A stretch of 64,000 nucleotides of DNA, taken from the IMG/VR virus record IMGVR_UViG_3300042348_000780, one strand, 5' to 3'. The notes under the pieces were generated by a model. It searched no databases and was not told the origin of the DNA. It saw only the letters and a list, made by a program, of their open reading frames with translations. Origin of the DNA: a virus. This document shows positions 1-22,410 of the stretch, piece by piece. The stretch's first letter is position 1, and each line of letters begins with the position of its first letter. The position numbers and the translations under genes are program-made.

Positions 1-69
1 CACAAGTTATCCACAATGGTAATACTATCAACATGGCTAGGGCTTCGCCCTTATAGCCATGTTGATAGT
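1..69. repeat. Repeat unit 1 (truncated by window edge)
   Basis: TTATCCACA 7-15; ACTATCAACATGGCTA-GGGC-TTC-GCCC-TTA-TAGCCATGTTGATAGT 24-69. Confidence 0.95.
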
Positions 70-79
70 TGCAAAGACA

Positions 80-101
80 CCAGACCCCTTTCGGGGTCTG
101 G
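80..101 (-). terminator. Terminator-like hairpin after ORF 123-650
   Basis: Minus strand CCAGACCCC-GAAA-GGGGTCTGG then TGTCTTT (weak U-tract). Confidence 0.6.
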
Positions 102-122
102 CATCCTGCCCAATTTCATTCT

Positions 123-650
123 TTACTGTGATCGTCCACGGACGACGATCCAGATAAGAGCCTGCATTGCCGCAGGTTCCCAACCGTGCATCCGCGCAAC
201 TTCGCGCACGGATTCCGCGAGTTGCAGATATTGCGTCTTATTGACAATCTTCGATGGATGCTGAGCCGCTTTCAGCATCCACGTATCAATCACTACGGCT
301 TCCCCGTCGCCTGAAATTGCACGGGCGAAGTTATTCGTCTTCAAGCCGCGCAATGCACGGAAGCCTTCAGACCTTGCGGCTTCCGCGTTACGAATGGATG
401 TCCGAAGACACTTGACACTTTCGCCTGACACGAACGAACGTGCCAGTTGTACATTGCGGCTCCACGTCACACGTGGAGAGAATGCGGAAATCACACTTGC
501 GGCCTGCTCATATGAGAGCGAATTGTCGAGAAGTTTGAGTTTCGCGCATTCGGTATGAGCCAACTCATACCAACGACAGGCTTCCAGTTGCTGTCCGAGG
601 TTCGATGAAGATGCGAGATTGTGAAAGAGAGTTGTGGGGGAAGTAGCCAT
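123..650 (-). CDS. Phage protein, possibly HhH-GPD DNA glycosylase-like fold
   Basis: 175 aa with WY..AH, SAFSP..W..N, G.KT..F, VVIDTWM and MQALIW motifs; own promoter directly upstream. Confidence 0.6.
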   Translation of the reverse strand: MATSPTTLFHNLASSSNLGQQLEACRWYELAHTECAKLKLLDNSLSYEQAASVISAFSPRVTWSRNVQLARSFVSGESVKCLRTSIRNAEAARSEGFRALRGLKTNNFARAISGDGEAVVIDTWMLKAAQHPSKIVNKTQYLQLAESVREVARMHGWEPAAMQALIWIVVRGRSQ

Positions 651-656
651 ACGGGG

Positions 657-685
657 AATATATCAGAATCCGAAGCGGCTTGCAA
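657..685 (-). promoter_or_regulatory. sigma70-type promoter, leaderless
   Basis: TTGCAA-17-TATATT-6 nt-ATG(650). Confidence 0.75.
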
Positions 686-706
686 GTTGGTCGAAAGAAT
701 GGAGAG

Positions 707-780
707 TTATCCACAAGTTATCCACAATGGTAATACTATCAACATTTATAGGGCTTCGCCCTTATATAAATGTTGATAGT
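707..780. repeat. Repeat unit 2
   Basis: TTATCCACA at 707 and 718; ACTATCAACATTTATA-GGGC-TTC-GCCC-TTA-TATAAATGTTGATAGT 735-780. Confidence 0.95.
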
Positions 781-791
781 TACGCAAAGGT

Positions 792-817
792 CCACCCACG
801 GCTCCTACCGTGGGTGG
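792..817 (-). terminator. Terminator-like hairpin
   Basis: CCACCCACGG/CCGTGGGTGG 10-bp stem just past the stop at 843. Confidence 0.55.
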
Positions 818-842
818 TGTTTGGTTTTTGTTTGGAGTTTGT

Positions 843-1190
843 TTACCTACGTCGCGGTTCGATCATGGTGAGTCGGCACTCACCGTTCATATCTTTCCAG
901 CATCGGAAACGATGCGGGAAGCGATTGTTGAGCATTGGATCGGAGATCCACAATCGGCATCCGTCCCATTGAGGATTGGAACGGAACATACGCAGAGCCA
1001 ATACTGCGGGACTCTCATTCGAGAGAACTTTCAGCGTATTCACACATTCACCGAACGGTGAGCCGTCAAGAATGGCGATGGTATATTCGTCATTCTTGCC
1101 GTTCATATTGAGCGAGATACCGAACATACGAGAGAAGAGGTTGCGGACGGAGGATGCCTTGCGGCCCGATTGAATGGTGGAAGTGACCAT
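843..1190 (-). CDS. Hypothetical cassette protein (115 aa; start re-called to ATG 1190)
   Basis: The track start at 1229 lies upstream of the promoter; ATG 1190 is 6 nt after the -10 box. Confidence 0.7.
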   Translation of the reverse strand: MVTSTIQSGRKASSVRNLFSRMFGISLNMNGKNDEYTIAILDGSPFGECVNTLKVLSNESPAVLALRMFRSNPQWDGCRLWISDPMLNNRFPHRFRCWKDMNGECRLTMIEPRRR

Positions 1191-1196
1191 GCAGAC

Positions 1197-1224
1197 AGTA
1201 TAGCGTCCGTCCCGAAGAATGCAA
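1197..1224 (-). promoter_or_regulatory. sigma70-type promoter, leaderless
   Basis: TTGCAT-16-TATACT-6 nt-ATG(1190). Confidence 0.7.
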
Positions 1225-1239
1225 GCCACTTTCCAAGAT

Positions 1240-1309
1240 TCTGGATAGATTGTGGATAAGTCAAACTATCAACATTGGGGGCCAAAGGCCCAATACCAAT
1301 GTTGATAGT
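1240..1309. repeat. Repeat unit 3 (DnaA boxes in reverse orientation)
   Basis: TCTGGATAG 1240 and TGTGGATAA 1251; ACTATCAACATTGG-GGGCC-AAA-GGCCC-AATA-CCAATGTTGATAGT 1265-1309. Confidence 0.9.
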
Positions 1310-1321
1310 ATTTCAAAGAAT

Positions 1322-1350
1322 AACCAGAGAGTCACATAGACTCTCTGGTT
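1322..1350 (-). terminator. Terminator-like hairpin
   Basis: AACCAGAGAGTC/GACTCTCTGGTT 12-bp stem followed by ATTCTTT on the minus strand. Confidence 0.65.
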
Positions 1351-1372
1351 GATTGTCACGTTGTGAGAGACT

Positions 1373-1573
1373 TCAGAAGTCTCTCAACCGTCTTGCGAGT
1401 TCCTTCTCCTCCTCTGTCATTCGGGAGAAGTCCAATACCCAATGACCCCTCGAATTGAGGCAAGTTGGTAACAACAACTTGAACTCTGCCGCCAATTCGG
1501 GACGGCTCGTCTTGCGACAATTTCGGTCGGTAACTGCGGACGGGGGAAGTACGTTGTTGGAGTTGGTATCCAT
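1373..1573 (-). CDS. Hypothetical cassette protein (66 aa, MDTNSNNV...; start re-called)
   Basis: ATG 1573 lies 6 nt after TATAGT; the longer track ORF would run through the repeat element. Confidence 0.65.
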   Translation of the reverse strand: MDTNSNNVLPPSAVTDRNCRKTSRPELAAEFKLLLPTCLNSRGHWVLDFSRMTEEEKELARRLRDF

Positions 1574-1579
1574 GCCGTA

Positions 1580-1607
1580 ACTATAGCGACTGTCCTGAAG
1601 AGTGCAA
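1580..1607 (-). promoter_or_regulatory. sigma70-type promoter, leaderless
   Basis: TTGCAC-16-TATAGT-6 nt-ATG(1573). Confidence 0.7.
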
Positions 1608-1632
1608 GAGGGTAGGGAGAATCTAGCGAGAT

Positions 1633-1703
1633 TGTGGGTACATTGTGGATATCTCAAACTATCAACAACGGTTAACGGGCAAAGCCCTACCGTTGTTGAT
1701 AGT
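1633..1703. repeat. Repeat unit 4 (DnaA-like boxes reversed, bulge on left arm)
   Basis: TGTGGGTAC 1633, TGTGGATAT 1644; ACTATCAACAACGGT-TAAC-GGGC-AAA-GCCC-T-ACCGTTGTTGATAGT 1658-1703. Confidence 0.9.
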
Positions 1704-1716
1704 ATTTGAAAGCTTT

Positions 1717-1732
1717 GGGAGCCGAAGCTCCC
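1717..1732 (-). terminator. Terminator-like cUUCGg hairpin
   Basis: Minus strand GGGAGC-TTCG-GCTCCC just after the stop at 1743. Confidence 0.6.
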
Positions 1733-1742
1733 TATGTTTGTG

Positions 1743-2024
1743 TTATTTACATATTTGTTTCGCGTGAATAAACAACTCGTCCAATTGATTCTGCAACTGG
1801 TCGAGTTGTGGCCAACGAAGTGCAACTCTGTCGCGGGAAATTTCCCGACGAACCATAGGGTATACTTTCACCAATGCAATAAACAAACTTCGCTTACATT
1901 CAAGCGAAGTTTCGGCAAAGATGTCCTTCATGAGAATGATGCAAACTCTTGACATATCAAGAGTTTGTTCGGGATCCATTGACTCAATACGTGACGAGAG
2001 AGATGAGAGAGTGGAGTTGTGCAT
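1743..2024 (-). CDS. Hypothetical cassette protein (93 aa)
   Basis: ORF fills the interval between promoter and terminator. Confidence 0.75.
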   Translation of the reverse strand: MHNSTLSSLSSRIESMDPEQTLDMSRVCIILMKDIFAETSLECKRSLFIALVKVYPMVRREISRDRVALRWPQLDQLQNQLDELFIHAKQICK

Positions 2025-2030
2025 GATATG

Positions 2031-2059
2031 ACTCTACCCGATTGTCTTCAGACTGTCAA
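2031..2059 (-). promoter_or_regulatory. sigma70-type promoter, leaderless
   Basis: TTGACA-17-TAGAGT-6 nt-ATG(2024). Confidence 0.75.
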
Positions 2060-2070
2060 GCGACCTAGAG

Positions 2071-2143
2071 TTATCCACAGGGTATCCACAAGGCCAAACT
2101 ATCAACAGGGCTAGGGCTTCGCCCTTATAGCCCTGTTGATAGT
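2071..2143. repeat. Repeat unit 5
   Basis: TTATCCACA 2071, GTATCCACA 2082; ACTATCAACAGGGCTA-GGGC-TTC-GCCC-TTA-TAGCCCTGTTGATAGT 2098-2143. Confidence 0.95.
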
Positions 2144-2176
2144 ATTTGAAAGCCCCGTCGCATGGGGCAGAATTGT

Positions 2177-2500
2177 TTATTTTTCTCCAAGACACATCTT
2201 GTGATATTGTACAAGATATTGTTTGAATGATTCAGAGAATGATTCTGAATTGTTAATCGGGATACACAATCCCAATTGTTTGATAATTCTGTCCATTCGT
2301 GAGATATAGGGTTCAATTTCCTTGAATCCACCATTGTCGATACAATGTTTGGACGTATTGACACAATCAATCAATGCGGCTAACAGATCAATTGTGCGAT
2401 CGTGAGATGATTCTAACAACGAAACTGAATCCAAAGCAGATGACCACATTGTTTGGTTGGCCGTTCGAATTTCGGTGATGCGAGTCTGGAAGTCAATCAT
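2177..2500 (-). CDS. Hypothetical cassette protein (107 aa)
   Basis: ORF with GAAAGG SD-like motif; hairpin 2152-2168 after the stop. Confidence 0.75.
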   Translation of the reverse strand: MIDFQTRITEIRTANQTMWSSALDSVSLLESSHDRTIDLLAALIDCVNTSKHCIDNGGFKEIEPYISRMDRIIKQLGLCIPINNSESFSESFKQYLVQYHKMCLGEK

Positions 2501-2553
2501 TGTTAGCCTTTCGTTAGGGTATCTGTCTCGGTGCGAAGATGCCCGATTCTAGT

Positions 2554-2582
2554 ACCCTACCCGATTCTCTTGAGGGTGTCAA
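2554..2582 (-). promoter_or_regulatory. sigma70-type promoter
   Basis: TTGACA-17-TAGGGT, same layout at 3096-3124 and 3470-3498. Confidence 0.6.
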
Positions 2583-2593
2583 GCGACCTAGAG

Positions 2594-2666
2594 TTATCCA
2601 CAGGATATCCACAAGGCCAAACTATCAACATTGCTAGGCCAAAGGCCGTATAGCAATGTTGATAGT
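2594..2666. repeat. Repeat unit 6
   Basis: TTATCCACA 2594, ATATCCACA 2605; ACTATCAACATTGCTA-GGCC-AAA-GGCC-GTA-TAGCAATGTTGATAGT 2621-2666. Confidence 0.95.
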
Positions 2667-2702
2667 ATTTGAAAGCCCCGTCGCATGGGGCAAGGTTCTT
2701 GC

Positions 2703-3023
2703 TTATTCTTCGAGGTCGAAATAATCCATACCAGAGTCAGTATGTCGAACCTTATACCATTCAAGGCCCTTCGAATATTGACGAATTTGATCTACCGTCA
2801 ATTCGACACCGCGCAATTCGCGCGGAATATCCAACTCCAATGTAGCAACGGCATTCGCGTAGGCGGCAACGTGCAGAGGCACGTTGCCGATAATATTGCG
2901 ACTACGCGCATCCTCTTTCGAGATATGCTCGACTACCGTTCCCGTGATTCCGTATCTTTCCCGAAGATACGTAACAAGGGCGGCATGTCGAGTCACAATG
3001 AGAGTTTCGATGTAGTAGGACAT
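2703..3023 (-). CDS. Csx16 (Cas_VVA1548)-like protein, candidate cOA ring nuclease / anti-CRISPR
   Basis: VTRH near the N-terminus, IIGNVPLHVAA and LDIPRELRGVELT match the Csx16 pattern (vTRH...vIGtLPvhlAA...ldlp.elRG.EL). Confidence 0.75.
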   Translation of the reverse strand: MSYYIETLIVTRHAALVTYLRERYGITGTVVEHISKEDARSRNIIGNVPLHVAAYANAVATLELDIPRELRGVELTVDQIRQYSKGLEWYKVRHTDSGMDYFDLEE

Positions 3024-3095
3024 TTGTTAGCCTTCCGTTAGGATCTGTCGTGGGCCGAATTGCCCGTGCATCGGACGAAGTTGCCCGATTCTAGT

Positions 3096-3124
3096 ACCCT
3101 ACCCGATTGTCTTCAGACTGTCAA
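3096..3124 (-). promoter_or_regulatory. sigma70-type promoter
   Basis: TTGACA-17-TAGGGT. Confidence 0.6.
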
Positions 3125-3135
3125 GCGACCTAGAG

Positions 3136-3207
3136 TTATCCACAAGGTATCCACAAGGCCAAACTATCAACATTGGGGGCCAAAGGCCCAATACCAATGT
3201 TGATAGT
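3136..3207. repeat. Repeat unit 7
   Basis: TTATCCACA 3136, GTATCCACA 3147; palindrome 3163-3207 identical to that of unit 3. Confidence 0.95.
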
Positions 3208-3220
3208 ATTTGAAAGGCTT

Positions 3221-3238
3221 GGGAGGCCGAAGCCTCCC
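3221..3238 (-). terminator. Terminator-like cUUCGg hairpin
   Basis: Minus strand GGGAGGC-TTCG-GCCTCCC. Confidence 0.6.
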
Positions 3239-3245
3239 GTGAAGT

Positions 3246-3395
3246 TTAAGTGTATCCATCCATCGATCTAGTGATGCTCTCAATATTAGCAGCATCTTCA
3301 TCGATTTGTCTGGCAATTTCCTCTTCACAATCTTCATATGGGTCGAAGTCATCGCCCCACTCGTCGTCCGTCTCTGAACGTTTCTTCGGTTTCAT
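3246..3395 (-). CDS. Small acidic protein (49 aa), not in ORF track
   Basis: Manual translation MKPKKRSETDDEWGDDFDPYEDCEEEIARQIDEDAANIESITRSMDGYT*; GAAAGG upstream; stop falls just before the terminator hairpin. Confidence 0.7.
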   Translation of the reverse strand: MKPKKRSETDDEWGDDFDPYEDCEEEIARQIDEDAANIESITRSMDGYT

Positions 3396-3469
3396 GGTAG
3401 CCTAGCCTTTCGTTCGGTCTGAAGTGGGCCGAATTGCCCTTGCATCGGACGGAGTTACCCGATTCTAGT

Positions 3470-3498
3470 ACCCTACCCGATTCTATTGAGAGTGTCAA
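3470..3498 (-). promoter_or_regulatory. sigma70-type promoter
   Basis: TTGACA-17-TAGGGT. Confidence 0.6.
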
Positions 3499-3509
3499 GC
3501 GACCTAGAG

Positions 3510-3544
3510 TTATCCACAGGATATCCACATCGTACTATCAACAT
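3510..3544. repeat. Repeat unit 8 (terminal half-site)
   Basis: TTATCCACA 3510, ATATCCACA 3521, ACTATCAACAT 3534-3544 with no complementary arm. Confidence 0.9.
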
Positions 3545-3793
3545 CCAGCCTCGTTATATGGTCACGTTTCTAAACCACGTCACAGGACAGTGAAATTGAC
3601 AAAAGGGAACCCATCCCCTTTAGCCGCTTGCGAGTCCCAAAACCCTAACACACCCAAAATTCCTATTAAATTATAATGGGACTCCCAGACCTCAAAAATT
3701 TTTTCTGGGAAAAAAATGCTCTATTAGCGTTTTCTAAATATATTAAATGAAGCATTTAGCCTGATCTCCTACATTATAGAAAGGAAAATAAAT

Positions 3794-4159
3794 ATGACAC
3801 TCAAAGAATACTATAAGAATAGACTACAAGAAGCTGTTTTGTCGAATAAATTACGCCGAACTTTAGGCGCAGTCGGCCTAGCGTCTAGCCTTTTCGCTGG
3901 AGGAGGCGCAGCGGTCGGTGTGGCAGCTCCGTATATAAGAGATGCAAAAACTACTTTTCATAAAGCAATAGGAAATCCTGTTGGTGGAGAAGAAGTTAGT
4001 CGGGCAAGGGCAGAAGCCGCTAATAAGGTGGGTCTTGTTGGATCAACCGTTCCCGCTGGTAAAAGAGCCTTATATGGAGCAGGACTAGGTGTTGGACTTC
4101 TTGGTGCTGGTATGGCTGCTGAAGTCTTAAAAGGAAGAATAAAGGGAAGAAGAAAATAA
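3794..4159 (+). CDS. Putative internal virion protein with two Gly-rich hydrophobic segments
   Basis: MTLKEYYKNRLQE N-terminus; AGGA SD. Confidence 0.6.
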   Translation: MTLKEYYKNRLQEAVLSNKLRRTLGAVGLASSLFAGGGAAVGVAAPYIRDAKTTFHKAIGNPVGGEEVSRARAEAANKVGLVGSTVPAGKRALYGAGLGVGLLGAGMAAEVLKGRIKGRRK

Positions 4160-4659: not shown

Positions 4660-5214
4660 ATGAAATCCTTTAAGCAATATCTCTCAGAAGCAGGAAAGCT
4701 CTATAGGTTTGATGATAAAATACTCATCCCGAAAGCCCAGACTTATGCATTTTCTCCAGATGGTACAGGTTCTGGTAATGTAGAAAATAATGTTGGATGG
4801 GTTCCCCCAAAAGACTGGAAAGAAAAAAAAGGATTGTTTGCTGGTCAATATCACCATGTTCTTTCGTATGCTGTTCCTAGATCTACCAGGTGGCTCGTAA
4901 CGGGTAAGAGAACAAAAGAAGAGAAACCAACTATACATTTCACAGAAGATGACAGAGAGGCAATAAACGCCCATAGACCAACAATCTCTCAATATAATGT
5001 AAGACAAGGGTTTGAAAGATCTCAGGCTAATAGCGGTGAATATTTTGCTCAGGCTGATAAGGCTCCTTCTCCCATCTCACAAAAAACAATAGAAGATCCA
5101 ATAGAACATATTAAAAAACATTTTAATGTTAACTTTGTTCCAGATCTTGATCGTCATAAAAGAGATTTAGATGCACGGGGAATCAATTATAATGCAGAAG
5201 GAGATTTTAATTGA
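4660..5214 (+). CDS. Putative capsid-targeted internal protein
   Basis: N-terminus MKSFKQYLSE; GATAAATA late-promoter-like motif 6 nt before ATG. Confidence 0.65.
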   Translation: MKSFKQYLSEAGKLYRFDDKILIPKAQTYAFSPDGTGSGNVENNVGWVPPKDWKEKKGLFAGQYHHVLSYAVPRSTRWLVTGKRTKEEKPTIHFTEDDREAINAHRPTISQYNVRQGFERSQANSGEYFAQADKAPSPISQKTIEDPIEHIKKHFNVNFVPDLDRHKRDLDARGINYNAEGDFN

Positions 5215-8232: not shown

Positions 8233-8423
8233 AAACATTTAAACAATTGATGAGTGAGATGATCAATCCAATAAGACAATCTACACCATCTACACAAAAA
8301 GCAAAAGCAGAACCGAAGATACCACCAGTGAAGCCAGTGACAACAGACGGAGATACTTTTGAAAAGTCACCTCCACCAAAGCCTCGACCAACTTATACAA
8401 AACCATCAAGACCCAAACCGTAA
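8229..8423 (+). CDS. Small Pro/Lys-rich putative internal protein
   Basis: MKTFKQLMSE. Confidence 0.55.
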   Translation: MKTFKQLMSEMINPIRQSTPSTQKAKAEPKIPPVKPVTTDGDTFEKSPPPKPRPTYTKPSRPKP

Positions 8424-8879
8424 AGGTTTTGGATTTTTACTCAGAGGCATATTTGCTTCTTTTGGTGTACGATCACCCTTTTTACGATTACACTTCAAAC
8501 AACTTGTAACAACATTTTGCCATTCATGTCTTCCACCTTTTGATCTCGGAATGACATGATCTACTGTGGCATTTGTATATTCTAGTTTACAAGAACAGTA
8601 TTGGCAGATATAATCATCTCTCTTAAAAATATTCTTTCTGGAAGGACTTAAATCCCTAAAAGGAATATACACATACTTTTTAAGAGCAAGGTGAAGAGGT
8701 AATTTAAATATCCCACTTCCCGTTTTGATTTCTAAATATTCTTCTTCAGTACATGGAGCCACTTTATCATTGATAAGTAATACGACAGCATGTTTCCAAT
8801 CAATATCAATCAGCTTCTGATAAGACATATTATACAACGCAACAGTACTCATAGACATATTTATCCTTATACCAGACAA
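8406..8879 (-). CDS. HNH endonuclease (McrA-like)
   Basis: RDDYICQYC...TVDHVIPRSKGG..W.NVVTSC.KCN.KK; true start may be an internal Met near 8858. Confidence 0.9.
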   Translation of the reverse strand: MSGIRINMSMSTVALYNMSYQKLIDIDWKHAVVLLINDKVAPCTEEEYLEIKTGSGIFKLPLHLALKKYVYIPFRDLSPSRKNIFKRDDYICQYCSCKLEYTNATVDHVIPRSKGGRHEWQNVVTSCLKCNRKKGDRTPKEANMPLSKNPKPLRFGS

Positions 8880-11069: not shown

Positions 11070-11585
11070 ATGAATATTTTTGCTGTGCATGAAAATCCTA
11101 TTATTGCAGCACGTTCTCTTTGCGACAAACACGTAGTTAAGATGATTGTAGAAGGCTGTCAGATGCTTTCTACAATTCATCGTTTAGGAGCATCACATAT
11201 TGTTCATGCTCCCGTTGAACTATACAAACAATCATTTGTCAATCACCCATGTACAATTTGGGCAAGAGAAACAATTGAAAATTATTTTTGGCTTGCCTAT
11301 CATACAAACGAACTTTCGGTAGAATATACTGAAAGATATAATAGAGAACATAAAGCACATCAGATGACTAAGTGGTTTTTGAAAGTTCCACCCATGAAAA
11401 TCCCATATGGCGATTTAACACCATTTGCTCAAGCAATGCCTGATAAATATAAAAACTCTGATTCGGTTCAAGCATATCGTGATTATTATATTCATGAAAA
11501 GTCAAGATTTGCTAAGTGGAAATTCACTGAACCGCCAGAATGGTATACACAAGGTGTAAACAATGTGCAAATGCAAGTATTGTGA
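11070..11585 (+). CDS. Pyrimidine-dimer DNA glycosylase / DenV-related family protein
   Basis: MNIF...AA..LCDKHVVKMIVE..QML...NHPCTIW...F.QAMP...AYR.YY..EK. Confidence 0.75.
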   Translation: MNIFAVHENPIIAARSLCDKHVVKMIVEGCQMLSTIHRLGASHIVHAPVELYKQSFVNHPCTIWARETIENYFWLAYHTNELSVEYTERYNREHKAHQMTKWFLKVPPMKIPYGDLTPFAQAMPDKYKNSDSVQAYRDYYIHEKSRFAKWKFTEPPEWYTQGVNNVQMQVL

Positions 11586-11907
11586 GCGAGAGTTCACTCA
11601 GAAAAATAAAAAGGGTTGTGTTGTTTGTCCTTCATGTAATACAACCAAAAGACGTTGGGAATCTAGAAAAGAATTAGTTGAAATGATGGGTGGTAAGTGT
11701 ACTAAGTGTGGATACTCTGGGAATCCAGCCACTCTTCAATTTCATCATTTAGATCCAAAAGAAAAGAAATATTCTTTGTACTCACGCAATCTTCTTCGTG
11801 CTGATCGTTATGAAGAAGTAAAGAAATGTGTAATTCTTTGTGCTAATTGTCATACTGTAGAACACACGAATCAAGAGTTACTTAAAAAGTTTGGTGTGAT
11901 CCCTTGA
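11563..11907 (+). CDS. HNH endonuclease with Zn-finger N-terminus
   Basis: GGKC.KCGY...LQFHH.DP.EK ... KC.ILCANCH..EH. Confidence 0.85.
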   Translation: MCKCKYCEREFTQKNKKGCVVCPSCNTTKRRWESRKELVEMMGGKCTKCGYSGNPATLQFHHLDPKEKKYSLYSRNLLRADRYEEVKKCVILCANCHTVEHTNQELLKKFGVIP

Positions 11908-13318: not shown

Positions 13319-13678
13319 ATGACAATTGAAGATATTATTAAAAATTATAAAGTTGTTGGTAGAAATAAAACCAAAACAGGTGAAGATAGATGTTTCTTTC
13401 TAAATGAGATAGATAATATCTTATATTGTTTTGGTCCTTCCAATTATGTTCGTCAAGCTTTTGATGAAAAAGATAAAGAAAAAATTTTAATAATTGAATA
13501 TGAAAATGGTCCATACCTACAAGTAGGTGATAATGTATATGGTGAAAAAATAATTCAAAAATTTGAATTATTTACTGATCATGGTATACCAATTACTGCA
13601 ATGCATCTTGCAGATAAACTACAACTTCAAACAAAGAAAAATAAACGAAAGAAAAAAGGGAATACAGGCGTAGTATAA
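13319..13678 (+). CDS. Hypothetical protein
   Basis: 119-aa ORF; GATAAATA upstream. Confidence 0.65.
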   Translation: MTIEDIIKNYKVVGRNKTKTGEDRCFFLNEIDNILYCFGPSNYVRQAFDEKDKEKILIIEYENGPYLQVGDNVYGEKIIQKFELFTDHGIPITAMHLADKLQLQTKKNKRKKKGNTGVV

Positions 13679-13808
13679 TATTACTATTCTGGTTTATATT
13701 TCATCGAGTCTCATTACGCTACATGTGTAAAACAGGACGAAATCTTAGGCCCGTCATAGGTTTGAATAGCAATATATATACTAGTAGGTTCAATTCCTAC
13801 TATTCCCA
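13658..13808 (+). ncRNA. tRNA-like structured ncRNA (acceptor stem + T arm + long stem)
   Basis: GGGAATA/TATTCCC-A acceptor; GTAGG-TTCAATT-CCTAC T arm; TAGTATA/TATACTA, ATATT/AATAT and CTATTC/GAATAG stacked helices. Confidence 0.7.
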
Positions 13809-14367: not shown

Positions 14368-14829
14368 TTATATTTGAAATAAACCATGATCAAATTCCCA
14401 ATGACAATTTGGGCATAAAGCAATTAAATTTTGATCATGGTTTATTTCACTCAATAAAGTATCCTCTGGAAAAGAACTTATTGGTTTTATATGACAAGCT
14501 TCAATATGTTTATCATAACCACAATGTTCACATTTGAAAGATGATTTAATTTTATTTGTTGCTCTTGCTCTTGCTCTAACTAAAGCGAATGCAGATGATT
14601 TATGACCTTTATCATAAATTGCTTCTTTTAATGTTAAATCTTTAGCAGAATTAAATTCTATAAAACATTCTTTACAGTAAGTTCTACTAGATTGTATTTT
14701 ATTATTACATGTTTTGCATAATTTTTTAACTTTTCTTTTTGGATTTTTATTAGAAATTTTAGCAGAACAGGATCTTGAGCAAAATTTTGGGTTATTGGTA
14801 ATATTATTACAGTAAAGACATCTTGACAT
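14368..14829 (-). CDS. HNH endonuclease with Zn-finger N-terminus
   Basis: FCSRSC; CEHCGYDKHIEACHIKPI...NLIALCPNCHWEFD. Confidence 0.9.
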   Translation of the reverse strand: MSRCLYCNNITNNPKFCSRSCSAKISNKNPKRKVKKLCKTCNNKIQSSRTYCKECFIEFNSAKDLTLKEAIYDKGHKSSAFALVRARARATNKIKSSFKCEHCGYDKHIEACHIKPISSFPEDTLLSEINHDQNLIALCPNCHWEFDHGLFQI

Positions 14830-21388: not shown

Positions 21389-21979
21389 TTACATGTCCCT
21401 ATTTTGATGTGTTGTCGCTGGTGTTATATTATTTATTTTATAATAACGATAACTAAAATTAACAGTAAAAATTGTATAACCAGAATTATCAGCACTAAAT
21501 GAAGTTGGAGTTATTAATAATGGATATGCATCAAAAAATGTAAATGCGCATAAAACATTTTCTTCTATTTTTTCTCTTGAATAAAATTCAAGTTGAATCG
21601 TTCTTAGTCGTTTGATTAAATCTTTTGGAAATATATCTGAAGATTGAACACCCGAATTTACTTTAGTATAAGGCATAACTGCATCCATCCAGGTTTCAAT
21701 ATATCCACGTTCAATCCAATCTTGGTATACAATAAAATTTACAGATAATTCATTATATTCTCTTCTCAGAGGTAGTGTAAATTCTGGACCATAATATGCA
21801 AATGGAGTGTTAATAAAATTTCTTCCAGGTAATAACACACTATCTGGATATAAAACCATAGTTGGAGAAGAACCAGAATTAGTTTCTCCTGGAGAAATTG
21901 TCATTCTGTAATTTGAAGGACTCTGAACAAATTTACGACTTTCAATATAATTTTTGTAGTCGCTTATTGTTAAAGGCAT
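21389..21979 (-). CDS. Tail tube initiator gp54-like
   Basis: Tail-tube-like motifs (V.LPGR...YGP...E.WMD...DAYP...V.FSYR); synteny. Confidence 0.7.
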   Translation of the reverse strand: MPLTISDYKNYIESRKFVQSPSNYRMTISPGETNSGSSPTMVLYPDSVLLPGRNFINTPFAYYGPEFTLPLRREYNELSVNFIVYQDWIERGYIETWMDAVMPYTKVNSGVQSSDIFPKDLIKRLRTIQLEFYSREKIEENVLCAFTFFDAYPLLITPTSFSADNSGYTIFTVNFSYRYYKINNITPATTHQNRDM

Positions 21980-22410
21980 TAGAATAAATCCTTTTCTGTT
22001 AAAATTTTAAACTTTATTCCATGATCTCTACAAAACTTATCAGCAGACTTCCATTTTTCTACATTTATGGCATATGTCATGGTTTCAGTAATCATGGTTT
22101 TTTTAGATTTTTTACCCTTTTCTGGAATTTTTGTTTGTTTTTCAGGTTTGATTTCAATCATTAGAGTGTCTATAGAACCATCTGCATTCTGCTTCTCTAC
22201 TAAAAAATCTGGTATATAGAAGTGAACTTGGTTATCTACTGGTGATAAATATGGTATTTTTAATGGTTCAGAAGCCCATCCAATGATATTTTTATTTTCA
22301 TCAAGATATTTACAAAACTTTCTTTCCCACAAAGAACGACACGTTATATTTTCGTGATTTCCTTTGTATTTGTTTTTATTTTTGGGTAAATATTTAGTTC
22401 TGTATGCCAT
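21979..22410 (-). CDS. gp4: Head completion nuclease gp4 (TnsA-like)
   Basis: KY.G....I..RSLWERKF..YLD.N..I..W.SE...IPY.SP.D...H.Y.PDF...EIKP. Confidence 0.92.
   Translation of the reverse strand: MAYRTKYLPKNKNKYKGNHENITCRSLWERKFCKYLDENKNIIGWASEPLKIPYLSPVDNQVHFYIPDFLVEKQNADGSIDTLMIEIKPEKQTKIPEKGKKSKKTMITETMTYAINVEKWKSADKFCRDHGIKFKILTEKDLF

What the first reader, a model, noticed from the sequence alone, without database searches (positions are those of the whole stretch)
1..3544. Integron-like array of self-contained single-gene cassettes delimited by DnaA-box / bulged-hairpin elements
Seen: seven unrelated small minus-strand genes. Each has the same layout read on the minus strand: [45-46-nt palindrome][two DnaA boxes][sigma70 promoter][ORF][terminator-like hairpin]. 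Eight repeat units occur about 370-710 bp apart, and the array runs off the left window edge. The region is visibly GC-richer than the rest of the window. One cargo gene resembles Csx16. Known parallel: T4-like phages have promoter-early stem-loop (PeSL) cassettes shuffled by recombination, but I know of none combining DnaA boxes with bulged palindromes. Inference: a modular early-expressed anti-defence or host-takeover cassette system whose repeats act as acquisition or shuffling sites. No recombinase is visible in this window.
Basis: partly seen in the sequence, partly recalled or inferred. Interest (0 to 1): 0.93.

Follow-up and report, generated by a model that had tools for sequence, protein, structure and literature searches.

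The report
Repeat-flanked early gene cassettes in phage
A T4-like freshwater or marine phage carries a row of small genes, each with its own promoter, terminator, DNA hairpin and pair of host DnaA-protein sites; related phages have swapped genes at these repeats, as in the known PeSL cassettes of T4-type phages and not as in an integron.

Summary
Window 1-3544 (minus strand) holds seven single-gene cassettes separated by eight copies of one module. The module is a terminator hairpin, a 45-46-nt palindrome with invariant ACTATCAACA arms, two DnaA-box consensus 9-mers 11 bp apart, and a sigma70-type promoter.

The rest of the window is a T4-like myovirus. Independent metagenome assemblies carry the same junction with phage DNA, so this is not a chimera. 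The window edge is an assembly break; the full array has 10 units.

Close relatives fall into at least two haplotypes that differ by whole cassettes, with one crossover inside the shared box/promoter segment. Three more distant lineages keep the ACTATCA-armed inverted repeat, the paired DnaA boxes, an 11 or 21-22 bp box-to-promoter gap, and an ATG 6 nt after the -10. The module is therefore under selection.

No integrase was found. Every cassette has its own promoter, and the hairpin's bulge flips strand between relatives, so the integron features tested were not met.

Best reading: a PeSL-type hyperplastic early-gene array with a new composite upstream module. One cargo is a Csx16-family protein, a family shown to be ring nucleases. 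The scan's index shows look-alikes only in this same window.

The parts
3470..3543 (-). Unit 8, the array start. It has a lone half-site TGTTGATAGT (3534-3543), two DnaA-box 9-mers (3521-3529, 3510-3518) and the promoter TTGACA-17-TAGGGT (3470-3498). It sits at the AT-rich to GC-rich switch and is divergent from the plus-strand genes that begin at 3794.
   Evidence: the same junction occurs in independent assemblies
3246..3395 (-). Cassette 1: an acidic 49-aa ORF with a leader and a Shine-Dalgarno-like AAAGG.
   Evidence: no family; called as a gene in L061, L062, L201, L203 and L205
3096..3238 (-). Unit 7: terminator hairpin 3221-3238, palindrome 3163-3207, boxes 3147-3155 and 3136-3144, promoter 3096-3124.
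2703..3023 (-). Cassette 2: a 106-aa Csx16-family (Cas_VVA1548) protein.
   Evidence: PF09652, E 7.8e-16, above cut-off; TIGR02620 below cut-off
2554..2691 (-). Unit 6: terminator hairpin 2675-2691, palindrome 2621-2666, boxes 2605-2613 and 2594-2602, promoter 2554-2582.
2177..2500 (-). Cassette 3: a 107-aa ORF. Haplotype B carries a 140-aa allele that is 24% identical.
2031..2168 (-). Unit 5: terminator 2152-2168, palindrome 2098-2143, boxes 2082-2090 and 2071-2079, promoter TTGACA-17-TAGAGT (2031-2059). An ATG follows 6 nt after the -10.
1743..2024 (-). Cassette 4: a 93-aa ORF whose start would be leaderless.
1580..1732 (-). Unit 4: terminator 1717-1732, palindrome 1658-1703 with the bulge on the 3' side, boxes in inverted orientation (1644-1652, 1633-1641), promoter 1580-1607.
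1373..1571 (-). Cassette 5: a 66-aa ORF whose start would be leaderless.
1197..1350 (-). Unit 3: terminator 1322-1350, palindrome 1265-1309 (identical to the unit 7 palindrome), inverted boxes 1251-1259 and 1240-1248, promoter 1197-1224.
843..1190 (-). Cassette 6: a 115-aa ORF, a distant paralogue of the 114-aa cassette 8 that lies beyond the window edge.
657..817 (-). Unit 2: terminator 792-817, palindrome 735-780, two perfect boxes 718-726 and 707-715, promoter TTGCAA-17-TATATT (657-685).
123..650 (-). Cassette 7: a 175-aa DUF7178 protein, paralogue (53%) of the 185-aa cassette 9 beyond the window edge.
1..101 (-). Unit 1, cut by the window edge: terminator 80-101, palindrome 24-69, box 7-15, and a second box truncated at base 1.

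Best explanation
This is a hyperplastic early-gene region of a T4-like myovirus, built like the PeSL (promoter-early stem-loop) arrays of T4-type phages. It is a row of autonomous, moron-like expression cassettes, each insulated by a terminator and driven by its own host-sigma70-type promoter.

The roughly 150-200-bp regulatory modules are similar enough to act as substrates for the phage's general homologous recombination. That recombination deletes, replaces and duplicates whole cassettes without disturbing their neighbours.

What is new is an upstream module conserved across lineages. It has an inverted repeat with ACTATCA(AC) outer arms and a freely covarying interior. Next to it sit two (rarely three) DnaA-box 9-mers at an 11-bp period, held an integral number of helical turns (11 or 21-22 bp) from the -35 element.

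Inferred, not shown: host DnaA binds the box pair and tunes or times firing of the early promoters. The palindrome is a DNA-level site, a cruciform or a factor-binding site, that belongs to the promoter module. Most cassettes are probably translated from leaderless mRNAs. At least one cargo, the Csx16-like protein, probably counters type III CRISPR signalling.
For: Anatomy. Each unit has a terminator, palindrome, box pair and promoter.

Phage identity. The window encodes a T4-type portal, gp23, scaffold, gp6, TerL and gp32. The capsid protein is 57-59% identical to those of cyanomyoviruses and the Methylophilales phage Melnitz.

Not chimeric. The array lies inside a 93.6-kb contig, and the same junction appears in many JGI, ENA and Logan assemblies.

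Cassette turnover.
- Haplotype B lacks the 49-aa, Csx16 and 93-aa cassettes and has a divergent allele of cassette 3. It recurs in at least 10 assemblies.
- Its left crossover lies inside the shared box/promoter/5' segment of units 8 and 6.
- Haplotype C carries a novel 116-aa cassette, seen in two samples.
- Cassettes 6+7 and 8+9 form a duplicated two-cassette block.
- Flanks are about 98% identical while shared cassettes are 82-92% identical.

Selection on the module.
- Three further lineages have the module: L242-244 and L246, whose DUF7178 proteins are 55-58% identical to the window's, and L248, which was found by a DNA pattern and shares no detectable flank proteins with the window.
- They keep ACTATCA-armed inverted repeats, paired boxes and a 21-nt gap to the -35, although the palindrome interior differs. 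In L242-244 and L246 an ATG follows 6 nt after the -10 (7 nt in L248).

Hairpin covariation. Eight stem variants give 44 of 44 Watson-Crick pairs at the variable positions. The official count is 99.2% paired with 5 pairs changed on both sides, and no shuffle of 500 reaches the covariation score. DNA-fold z-scores are -7.7 to -11.

Phasing. The gap from box to -35 is 11 bp in 4 units and 21-22 bp in 4 units.

Literature. PeSLs are defined as stem-loop terminators plus strong sigma70-like promoters in T4-type hyperplastic regions. They mediate indels, and crossovers map between the -10, the Shine-Dalgarno sequence and the ATG (PMC2839356, PMC4122927).
Against: - No expression data exist, so promoter, terminator and leaderless status are sequence inference.
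- The -10 of units 6-8 (TAGGGT) is weak, and the generic scan listed only two of the array's promoters.
- PeSLs as described have neither DnaA boxes nor a second long palindrome.
- Passive homology does not explain why palindrome arms and box phasing are conserved across lineages, so the module must have a function that this explanation only guesses at.
- In one unit the ATG 6 nt after the -10 is not the start of the conserved gene. Substitutions by codon position are 1/1/20 for the downstream frame and 0/8/0 for the frame opened by that ATG.
- The haplotype C gene order rests on one 1.1-kb contig. Fold-back contig ends at palindromes (L076, L242, L243) show that assemblers mishandle these repeats.
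- DnaA binding is untested and the host is unknown.
Confidence: 0.6

Rival explanations
1. An active cassette-mobilisation system, integron-like in function. The palindrome would be a structured recombination site, as a cruciform or ssDNA hairpin, cut and rejoined by a dedicated recombinase or a structure-specific nuclease encoded elsewhere in the genome. Cassettes would be captured and excised as circles.
For: - Hairpin covariation with invariant outer arms.
- Palindrome centres are exact reverse complements between relatives at two orthologous units, so DNA transactions do occur inside the palindromes.
- The array starts with a lone half-site in two lineages.
- ACTATCAAC copies also sit at the far edge of the GC-rich block.
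- In haplotype C a palindrome identical to those of units 3 and 7 is followed by a unit 6/8-type box-promoter segment. That is the junction a circle or a duplication formed between such units would leave.
- HNH and TnsA-like endonuclease genes lie in the window.
Against: - No integrase, serine recombinase or HUH enzyme was seen among the window ORFs scanned or in about 34 kb of a related contig.
- Every cassette has its own promoter.
- The bulge is not strand-fixed and is missing in other lineages.
- The one crossover mapped precisely lies in the box/promoter segment, not in the palindrome.
- Most assemblies share one cassette order.
Confidence: 0.12
2. The hairpin plus DnaA-box modules would serve DNA metabolism more than transcription. 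They could be DnaA-dependent priming or origin-like sites, or a multi-copy sink that captures host DnaA. That resembles the function proposed for the DnaA-box and inverted-repeat region of phage T5. On this reading the promoters merely lie adjacent.
For: - About 21 boxes lie in 10 units and none elsewhere in the 20-kb block.
- The 11-bp head-to-tail pairing is the arrangement that favours cooperative DnaA binding (own knowledge of oriC).
- Box position is fixed relative to the palindrome, starting 4-8 nt after the right arm in nine of ten units.
- The same box pair occurs in at least 119 IMG/VR contigs, far more than chance would give.
- T5-like phages have paired DnaA boxes tied to inverted repeats (bioRxiv 10.1101/866236).
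- Hairpin loops GAA and GCA closed by C-G are of the kind known for stable DNA mini-hairpins (own knowledge).
Against: - The box-to-promoter gap keeps helical phase in 8 of 10 units here and is 21 nt in the L242/L243 and L246 units read. This ties the boxes to the promoters.
- An eleventh palindrome has a promoter but no boxes.
- T4-type phages are not known to use DnaA for replication (own knowledge).
- The T5 model is itself an untested proposal.
Confidence: 0.12
3. Artefact or foreign DNA: a chimeric assembly joining a GC-rich fragment from another organism to a phage contig end.
For: - There is a sharp switch in GC and in codon use, with GC3 of 0.50-0.60 against 0.12-0.24.
- The array touches the window edge.
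- Cassette families such as DUF7178 are otherwise typical of actinobacteriophages.
Against: - Both junctions of the GC-rich block are spanned by many independent assemblies from different samples and pipelines.
- The block also holds cyanomyovirus-type genes.
- No bacterial genome in the species collection carries the element.
Confidence: 0.02

Closest known systems
PeSL (promoter-early stem-loop) cassettes of T4-type phages (Arbiol et al. 2010, PMC2839356; Comeau et al. 2014, PMC4122927)
   Same: - The host is a T4-type myovirus.
- Small non-core ORFs are each bracketed by a composite terminator stem-loop plus sigma70-like promoter motif, repeated many times.
- Close relatives differ by whole-ORF indels and replacements.
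- The mapped crossover lies in the promoter-proximal part of the motif.
   Different: - The module here is three to four times longer.
- It adds a second, 31-59-nt inverted repeat with conserved ACTATCA arms and a phased pair of DnaA-box 9-mers.
- Most genes appear leaderless.
- The array sits in a GC-rich block.
- There is no DNA similarity to any record of the phage collection.
- Mini-circles could not be tested.
Morons of lambdoid phages (own knowledge: Juhala/Hendrix)
   Same: Single accessory genes that carry their own promoter and terminator.
   Different: Morons are scattered single insertions without a shared repeated module. Here ten units share one conserved module in tandem.
Integron cassette arrays (IntI, attI, Pc, attC)
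   Same: Tandem single-gene units separated by imperfect palindromes, with gene content that varies between relatives.
   Different: - No integrase was found.
- Each cassette has its own promoter and terminator.
- The palindrome arms are invariant in sequence and do not fit the attC core (own comparison from memory).
- The unpaired bases change strand or are absent.
DnaA-box pairs with inverted repeats in the first-step-transfer region of T5-like phages (Davison, bioRxiv 10.1101/866236)
   Same: A phage region of early genes in which consensus DnaA boxes occur in close pairs bound to inverted repeats and palindromes. T5's variant box TTATCAACA resembles the palindrome arm here (CTATCAACA).
   Different: - In T5 there are eight boxes in a non-coding part of the terminal repeat, separated by 3 bp.
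- Their proposed (untested) role is to stop DNA injection.
- Here there are pairs with a 2-bp spacer upstream of every promoter in a T4-like phage.
Csx16 (Cas_VVA1548) ring nucleases (bioRxiv 10.1101/2024.09.24.614671)
   Same: Cassette 2 matches the family profile over its whole length.
   Different: It stands alone in a phage with no cas genes nearby. It is divergent, falling below the NCBIfam cut-off. That paper found Csx16 in only 2 of 28,114 phage genomes.

Membership tests
PeSL array of T4-type phages | Lies in a T4-type myovirus genome among small non-core ORFs | tested here: met
   T4 portal, gp23, scaffold, gp6, TerL and gp32 in the window. Only two of the seven cassette proteins in the window match any family.
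PeSL array of T4-type phages | Composite motif of a stem-loop terminator followed by a sigma70-like promoter between ORFs, repeated with sequence similarity | tested here: met
   By sequence only. Function as promoter or terminator was not assayed.
PeSL array of T4-type phages | Indels or replacements between close relatives have breakpoints in the motifs | tested here: met
   Haplotype A versus B, with the crossover in the shared segment of units 8 and 6. Haplotype C carries a novel cassette between units.
PeSL array of T4-type phages | Formation of mini-circles by recombination between neighbouring motifs | not testable with these tools
Integron | Tyrosine recombinase IntI next to the array | tested here: not met
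   No recombinase family was seen among the window ORFs scanned or in about 34 kb of the related contig. The rest of the genome could not be searched.
Integron | Promoterless cassettes read from one common promoter | tested here: not met
   Each unit has its own -35/-10 pair, and a terminator hairpin precedes each palindrome.
Integron | attC sites with strand-specific extrahelical bases | tested here: not met
   The bulge lies on either strand at orthologous units. It is absent in L242-L244, and L246 has an unpaired centre.
DnaA box (TTATCCACA) | 9-mer consensus, clustered head to tail at about an 11-bp period | tested here: met
   Binding by DnaA is not testable here.
Csx16 / Cas_VVA1548 | Profile match above the curated cut-off | tested here: inconclusive
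   Pfam PF09652 scores 58.5 bits against a cut-off of 25. TIGR02620 scores 19.9 bits against 46.35. Ring nuclease activity was not tested.
T5-type DnaA-box/inverted-repeat region | Non-coding block in the terminal repeat with eight boxes in four pairs on two inverted repeats | tested here: not met
   The boxes here are spread over ten promoter units inside a coding array. No terminal repeat is known for this genome.

The most novel reading that the evidence does not exclude
The conserved module, an ACTATCA-armed hairpin plus a phased DnaA-box pair, would be an active DNA element. Host DnaA bound at the boxes would help the palindrome extrude as a cruciform or hairpin. That would both switch on the adjacent early promoter and create a structure-specific break or priming site. 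Each promoter-equipped cassette would then be a self-mobilising unit: a recombinase-free functional analogue of integron cassettes in T4-like phages that depends on a host replication initiator.
Probability: 0.12. Interest if true: 0.85.

Novelty: new variant of a known kind. Interest (0 to 1): 0.62.

Why it matters
PeSL arrays are the accepted route by which T4-type phages swap small accessory genes, many of which are now suspected counter-defence genes. Until now the motif has been seen only as a terminator plus a promoter.

Here the same architecture carries an extra module that is conserved across lineages whose proteins have diverged to 55-58% identity. That module pairs a host-initiator (DnaA) binding motif with a structure-forming palindrome, in fixed helical phase with the promoter.

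If DnaA really controls these promoters, a T4-like phage would be coupling expression of its accessory early genes to the host's replication state. If the palindrome promotes breaks, it would explain why such regions are hyperplastic.

The array is also a ready list of about a dozen small early proteins to test for counter-defence activity. One of them is a rare phage-borne Csx16-family protein.

Tried and rejected
- The window's own genome is not held. The nearest record, G001, has no part of the array or its flanks.
- blastn of window 1-3700 against 50,697 phage records gave no match.
- The strict palindrome pattern in IMG/VR gave only two chance hits inside coding sequence. The palindrome-plus-box pattern gave none.
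- The metagenome scan returned 52 loci, of which 47 are unrelated palindromes that share the 10-mer arms.
- The genome-collection scan returned 28 single hits in unrelated taxa. The two at contig starts (L216, L233) were checked and are unrelated.
- Rfam gave nothing near any gathering score.
- A search for a relative that lacks the GC-rich block (an empty site) found none.
- L207, L245 and L247 carry DUF7178 homologues at 47-53% identity but lack the module.
- The apparent bidirectional, mirror-image unit in L242 was rejected as an assembly fold-back. It is a near-perfect mirror with 2 mismatches. Similar fold-backs occur at the ends of L243 and L076.
- MAFFT could not place the 45-48-nt palindromes in one structural register. 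The official pair count therefore used the six 46-nt forms, and a script covered all forms.
- An IHF-site or attC-core reading of the arms was considered from memory and does not fit.

Full report
**1. Is it there?**

Yes. On the minus strand of window 1-3544, seven ORFs are separated by a recurring module. The ORFs are 49, 106, 107, 93, 66, 115 and 175 aa.

- The 10-mer ACTATCAACA and its complement occur 15 times, all inside the array, against 0.36 expected. They form seven palindromes of 45-46 nt and one lone half-site at 3534-3543.
- Directly after each right arm come two 9-mers that fit the DnaA-box consensus, 11 bp apart. There are five exact paired matches against none expected. Eight of the nine perfect 9-mers in the whole 64-kb window lie in the array.
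- In two units the boxes are on the opposite strand.
- A -35/-10 pair follows in every unit except the one cut by the window edge.
- A short GC-rich hairpin with a modest T-tract precedes each palindrome.
- The generic scanner is stricter. It listed only two of the promoters and one minus-strand terminator. These labels are therefore sequence-level calls.
- GC is 45-50% here against about 30% in the rest of the window.
- Only two cassettes match a family: DUF7178 and Cas_VVA1548/Csx16.

**2. Context**

The rest of the window encodes T4-type proteins: portal, major capsid, scaffold, gp6, large terminase, sheath, gp32 and baseplate proteins. The capsid protein is 57-59% identical to those of cyanomyoviruses and the Methylophilales phage Melnitz. 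The setting is therefore a T4-like aquatic myovirus. The window's own genome is not held.

**3. Relatives**

One metagenome pattern scan returned five true relatives. Look-ups by exact protein then gave about 40 further loci from JGI, ENA and Logan assemblies.

- In a 93.6-kb contig the array lies in the interior. It has one half-site plus nine palindromes, ten units over about 4.9 kb, followed by a small operon.
- The AT-rich flank is the same as window 3545 onward, at about 98% identity. The junction is spanned in many independent assemblies. This excludes a chimera.
- Many contigs, like the window, begin about 33 nt before a right arm. The "run off the edge" is therefore an assembler break at the repeat.

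**4. Do relatives differ in cassettes?**

Yes, but modestly.

- Haplotype A (the window, L061-L067, L201-L206) has cassettes of 49 aa, Csx16, 107, 93, 66, 115, DUF7178-175, 114 and DUF7178-185 aa.
- Haplotype B (L013, L026, L069-L078) was recovered from at least ten assemblies. It lacks the 49-aa, Csx16 and 93-aa cassettes and carries a 140-aa allele of the 107-aa gene that is only 24% identical.
- An alignment shows that B follows unit 8 through the boxes, the promoter and the first transcribed bases, then switches to the 5' leader of unit 6. The crossover therefore lies in the shared promoter-proximal segment. This is the position reported for PeSL exchanges.
- Haplotype C (L006, L068) has a novel 116-aa cassette, and in L006 a different neighbour order. 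That order rests on a single 1.1-kb contig.
- Cassettes 6+7 and 8+9 are a duplicated two-gene block.
- Between haplotypes, shared cassettes are 82-92% identical while the flank is about 98% identical. This fits exchange with diverged lineages.

**5. The palindrome**

- Eleven sequence forms occur in this lineage. Each has a 14-16-bp outer stem, of which the outer 10 bp are invariant. Inside is a 3-4-nt A/T-rich bulge, a 4-5-bp GC stem and a 3-4-nt loop.
- Stem positions 11-14 take eight different sequences and pair in 44 of 44 cases. Shuffled partners average 19.9.
- On the six 46-nt forms, 99.2% of cells pair and five pairs change on both sides. No shuffle of 500 reaches the covariation score.
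- As single-stranded DNA the palindromes fold at -16.5 to -20.5 kcal/mol, with z-scores of -7.7 to -11.
- At two orthologous units the centre is the exact reverse complement in different relatives, and a third unit shows the bulge moved to the other side. The asymmetry is therefore not strand-fixed. This argues against an attC-like strand marker, but it shows that inversions happen inside the palindromes.

**6. Conservation at depth**

A protein search with the DUF7178 cassette found intermediate relatives.

- L242-L244 have a DUF7178 protein 58% identical to the window's. L246 is 55% identical and syntenic with the DUF7249 and WYL_2 genes. L248 was found by a DNA pattern and has an unrelated flank.
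- All carry the same module: terminator, an inverted repeat with ACTATCA outer arms, two DnaA boxes at 11 bp, 21 nt to the -35, and a TANNNT -10. The ATG follows after 6 nt in L242-L244 and L246, and after 7 nt in L248.
- The interior differs. It is a perfect 31-33-nt hairpin without a bulge in L242-244, and a 14-15-bp stem round an unpaired centre of about 16-18 nt in L246.
- Arm variants change on both sides (ACTATCAT/ATGATAGT, ACTATCAG/CTGATAGT).
- In L248 the array again begins with a lone half-site at an AT-to-GC switch, with divergent transcription.
- Homologues at 47-53% identity (L207, L245, L247) lack the module. L207, from a 93-kb phage with terminal repeats, instead has more than 20 copies of a different promoter repeat, which is another PeSL-like array.

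The arms, the box pair and their phase are therefore under selection. The bulged inner hairpin is specific to this lineage.

**7. Boxes and promoter**

In the complete array the gap from the last box to the -35 is 11 bp in four units and 21-22 bp in four units. The two inverted-box units differ. L242/L243 and L246 show 21 nt. Integral helical turns tie the boxes to the promoter.

The same box pair occurs in at least 119 IMG/VR contigs, so paired DnaA boxes are a common phage motif. What is unusual is one pair per promoter. T5-like phages offer the nearest published parallel for boxes tied to inverted repeats.

**8. Leaderless starts**

In seven of ten units an ATG lies exactly 6 nt after the -10. 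In six of them it opens the cassette gene. In one, codon-position counts (1/1/20 against 0/8/0) show that the real gene starts 44 nt downstream.

**9. Recombinase**

None was found among the window ORFs scanned or in about 34 kb of the related contig. Two HNH endonucleases and a TnsA-like endonuclease are present in the window. The rest of the genome could not be searched.

**10. Wider block**

- The GC-rich stretch is about 20 kb, from L198 about 3200 to window about 3544. GC3 is 0.50-0.60 against 0.12-0.24 in flank genes.
- It mixes actinophage-type families (DUF7178, DUF7249, Phage_L5_gp82) with a cyanomyovirus-type pair, an AAA_5 ATPase and a 'peptidase'.
- Its far edge carries three direct ACTATCAAC copies beside a terminator.
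- An eleventh palindrome without boxes, plus loose half-sites, lie near a WYL_2 gene.
- No relative lacking the block was found.

**11. Verdict**

The anatomy and the cassette turnover match the PeSL concept (PMC2839356, PMC4122927). The integron features that could be tested are not met. The added, conserved hairpin and DnaA-box module is new for this kind of element, and its function is inferred only.

The Csx16 family has been shown to be cA4 ring nucleases and is rare in phages. This gives one plausible counter-defence cargo.

The earlier notes of this scan on the same stretch (compensatory palindromes, 11-bp box pairs, half-site end) agree with what I measured. The index shows no look-alike on other DNA.

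Noticed in passing
L198:3000-20162 plus L061:7000-10000 (left of window base 1, up to window ~3544): The GC-rich region is a block of about 20 kb (45-53% GC; GC3 0.50-0.60 against 0.12-0.24 in flanking genes) inside a phage of about 30% GC. It mixes actinophage-type families with cyanomyovirus-type genes (AAA_5 ATPase plus a 697-aa 'peptidase'). No relative without the block was found.
   Followed up: partly
L198:3174-3224: Three direct copies of ACTATCAAC sit next to an intrinsic terminator exactly at the far AT/GC boundary of the block. They have the same orientation as the lone half-site at window 3534-3543.
   Followed up: partly
L061:13155-13213 and 13594-13710: An eleventh, longer palindrome has ACTATCAAC arms, a terminator before it and a promoter after it, but no DnaA boxes. 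Three loose half-sites lie in an AT-rich spacer next to a WYL_2 gene.
   Followed up: partly
window 735-780 versus L026:4088-4133; L026:6121-6168 versus L056:1824-1871: Palindrome centres are exact reverse complements between relatives at the same unit, so the bulge changes strand.
   Followed up: yes
window 4692-5211: The 184-aa MKSFKQYLSE gene is absent from haplotype B (L026). The deletion endpoints lie in the N-terminal coding sequence shared by neighbouring MKSFK-family genes, which is a second kind of repeat-mediated gene loss.
   Followed up: partly
window 843-1190 and 123-650; L061:10757-11101 and 11277-11834: The cassette pairs 115 aa + DUF7178-175 and 114 aa + DUF7178-185 are paralogous (23% and 53% identity), so a two-cassette block was duplicated.
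   Followed up: yes
L061:10618-11210: In this unit the ATG 6 nt after the -10 opens a 72-codon frame, but substitutions among nine relatives fall on third positions of the downstream 114-aa frame (1/1/20 against 0/8/0).
   Followed up: yes
IMG/VR loci L079-L197: The box pair TGTGGATA-N3-TGTGGATAAC occurs in at least 119 viral contigs of all GC contents, often in clusters and often at contig ends. None has an ACTATCA palindrome beside it.
   Followed up: partly
L207:1-12504 (complete 92.9-kb phage with terminal repeats): More than 20 copies of a different repeated promoter module (AAATGTCTG ... TATAAT, preceded by GGGGTCGGGC hairpins) lie between small genes, one of them a DUF7178 homologue. 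This is another PeSL-like array, in a phage whose type was not determined here (the gp23 search found nothing but was uninformative).
   Followed up: partly
L076:1787-2055, L243:1788-1887, L242:1-200: These contig ends fold back on themselves at the palindromes. They are most likely assembly artefacts and should not be read as divergent units.
   Followed up: yes
window 8406-8879, 14368-14829, 21979-22410, 11070-11585: Two HNH endonucleases, a TnsA-like endonuclease and a DenV-type pyrimidine dimer glycosylase lie in the AT-rich part of the window.
   Followed up: no
all palindrome arms, for example window 24-33: The arm CTATCAACA matches the DnaA box TTATCCACA at 7 of 9 positions. It differs by one base from TTATCAACA, which the T5 literature treats as a variant DnaA box.
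   Followed up: no
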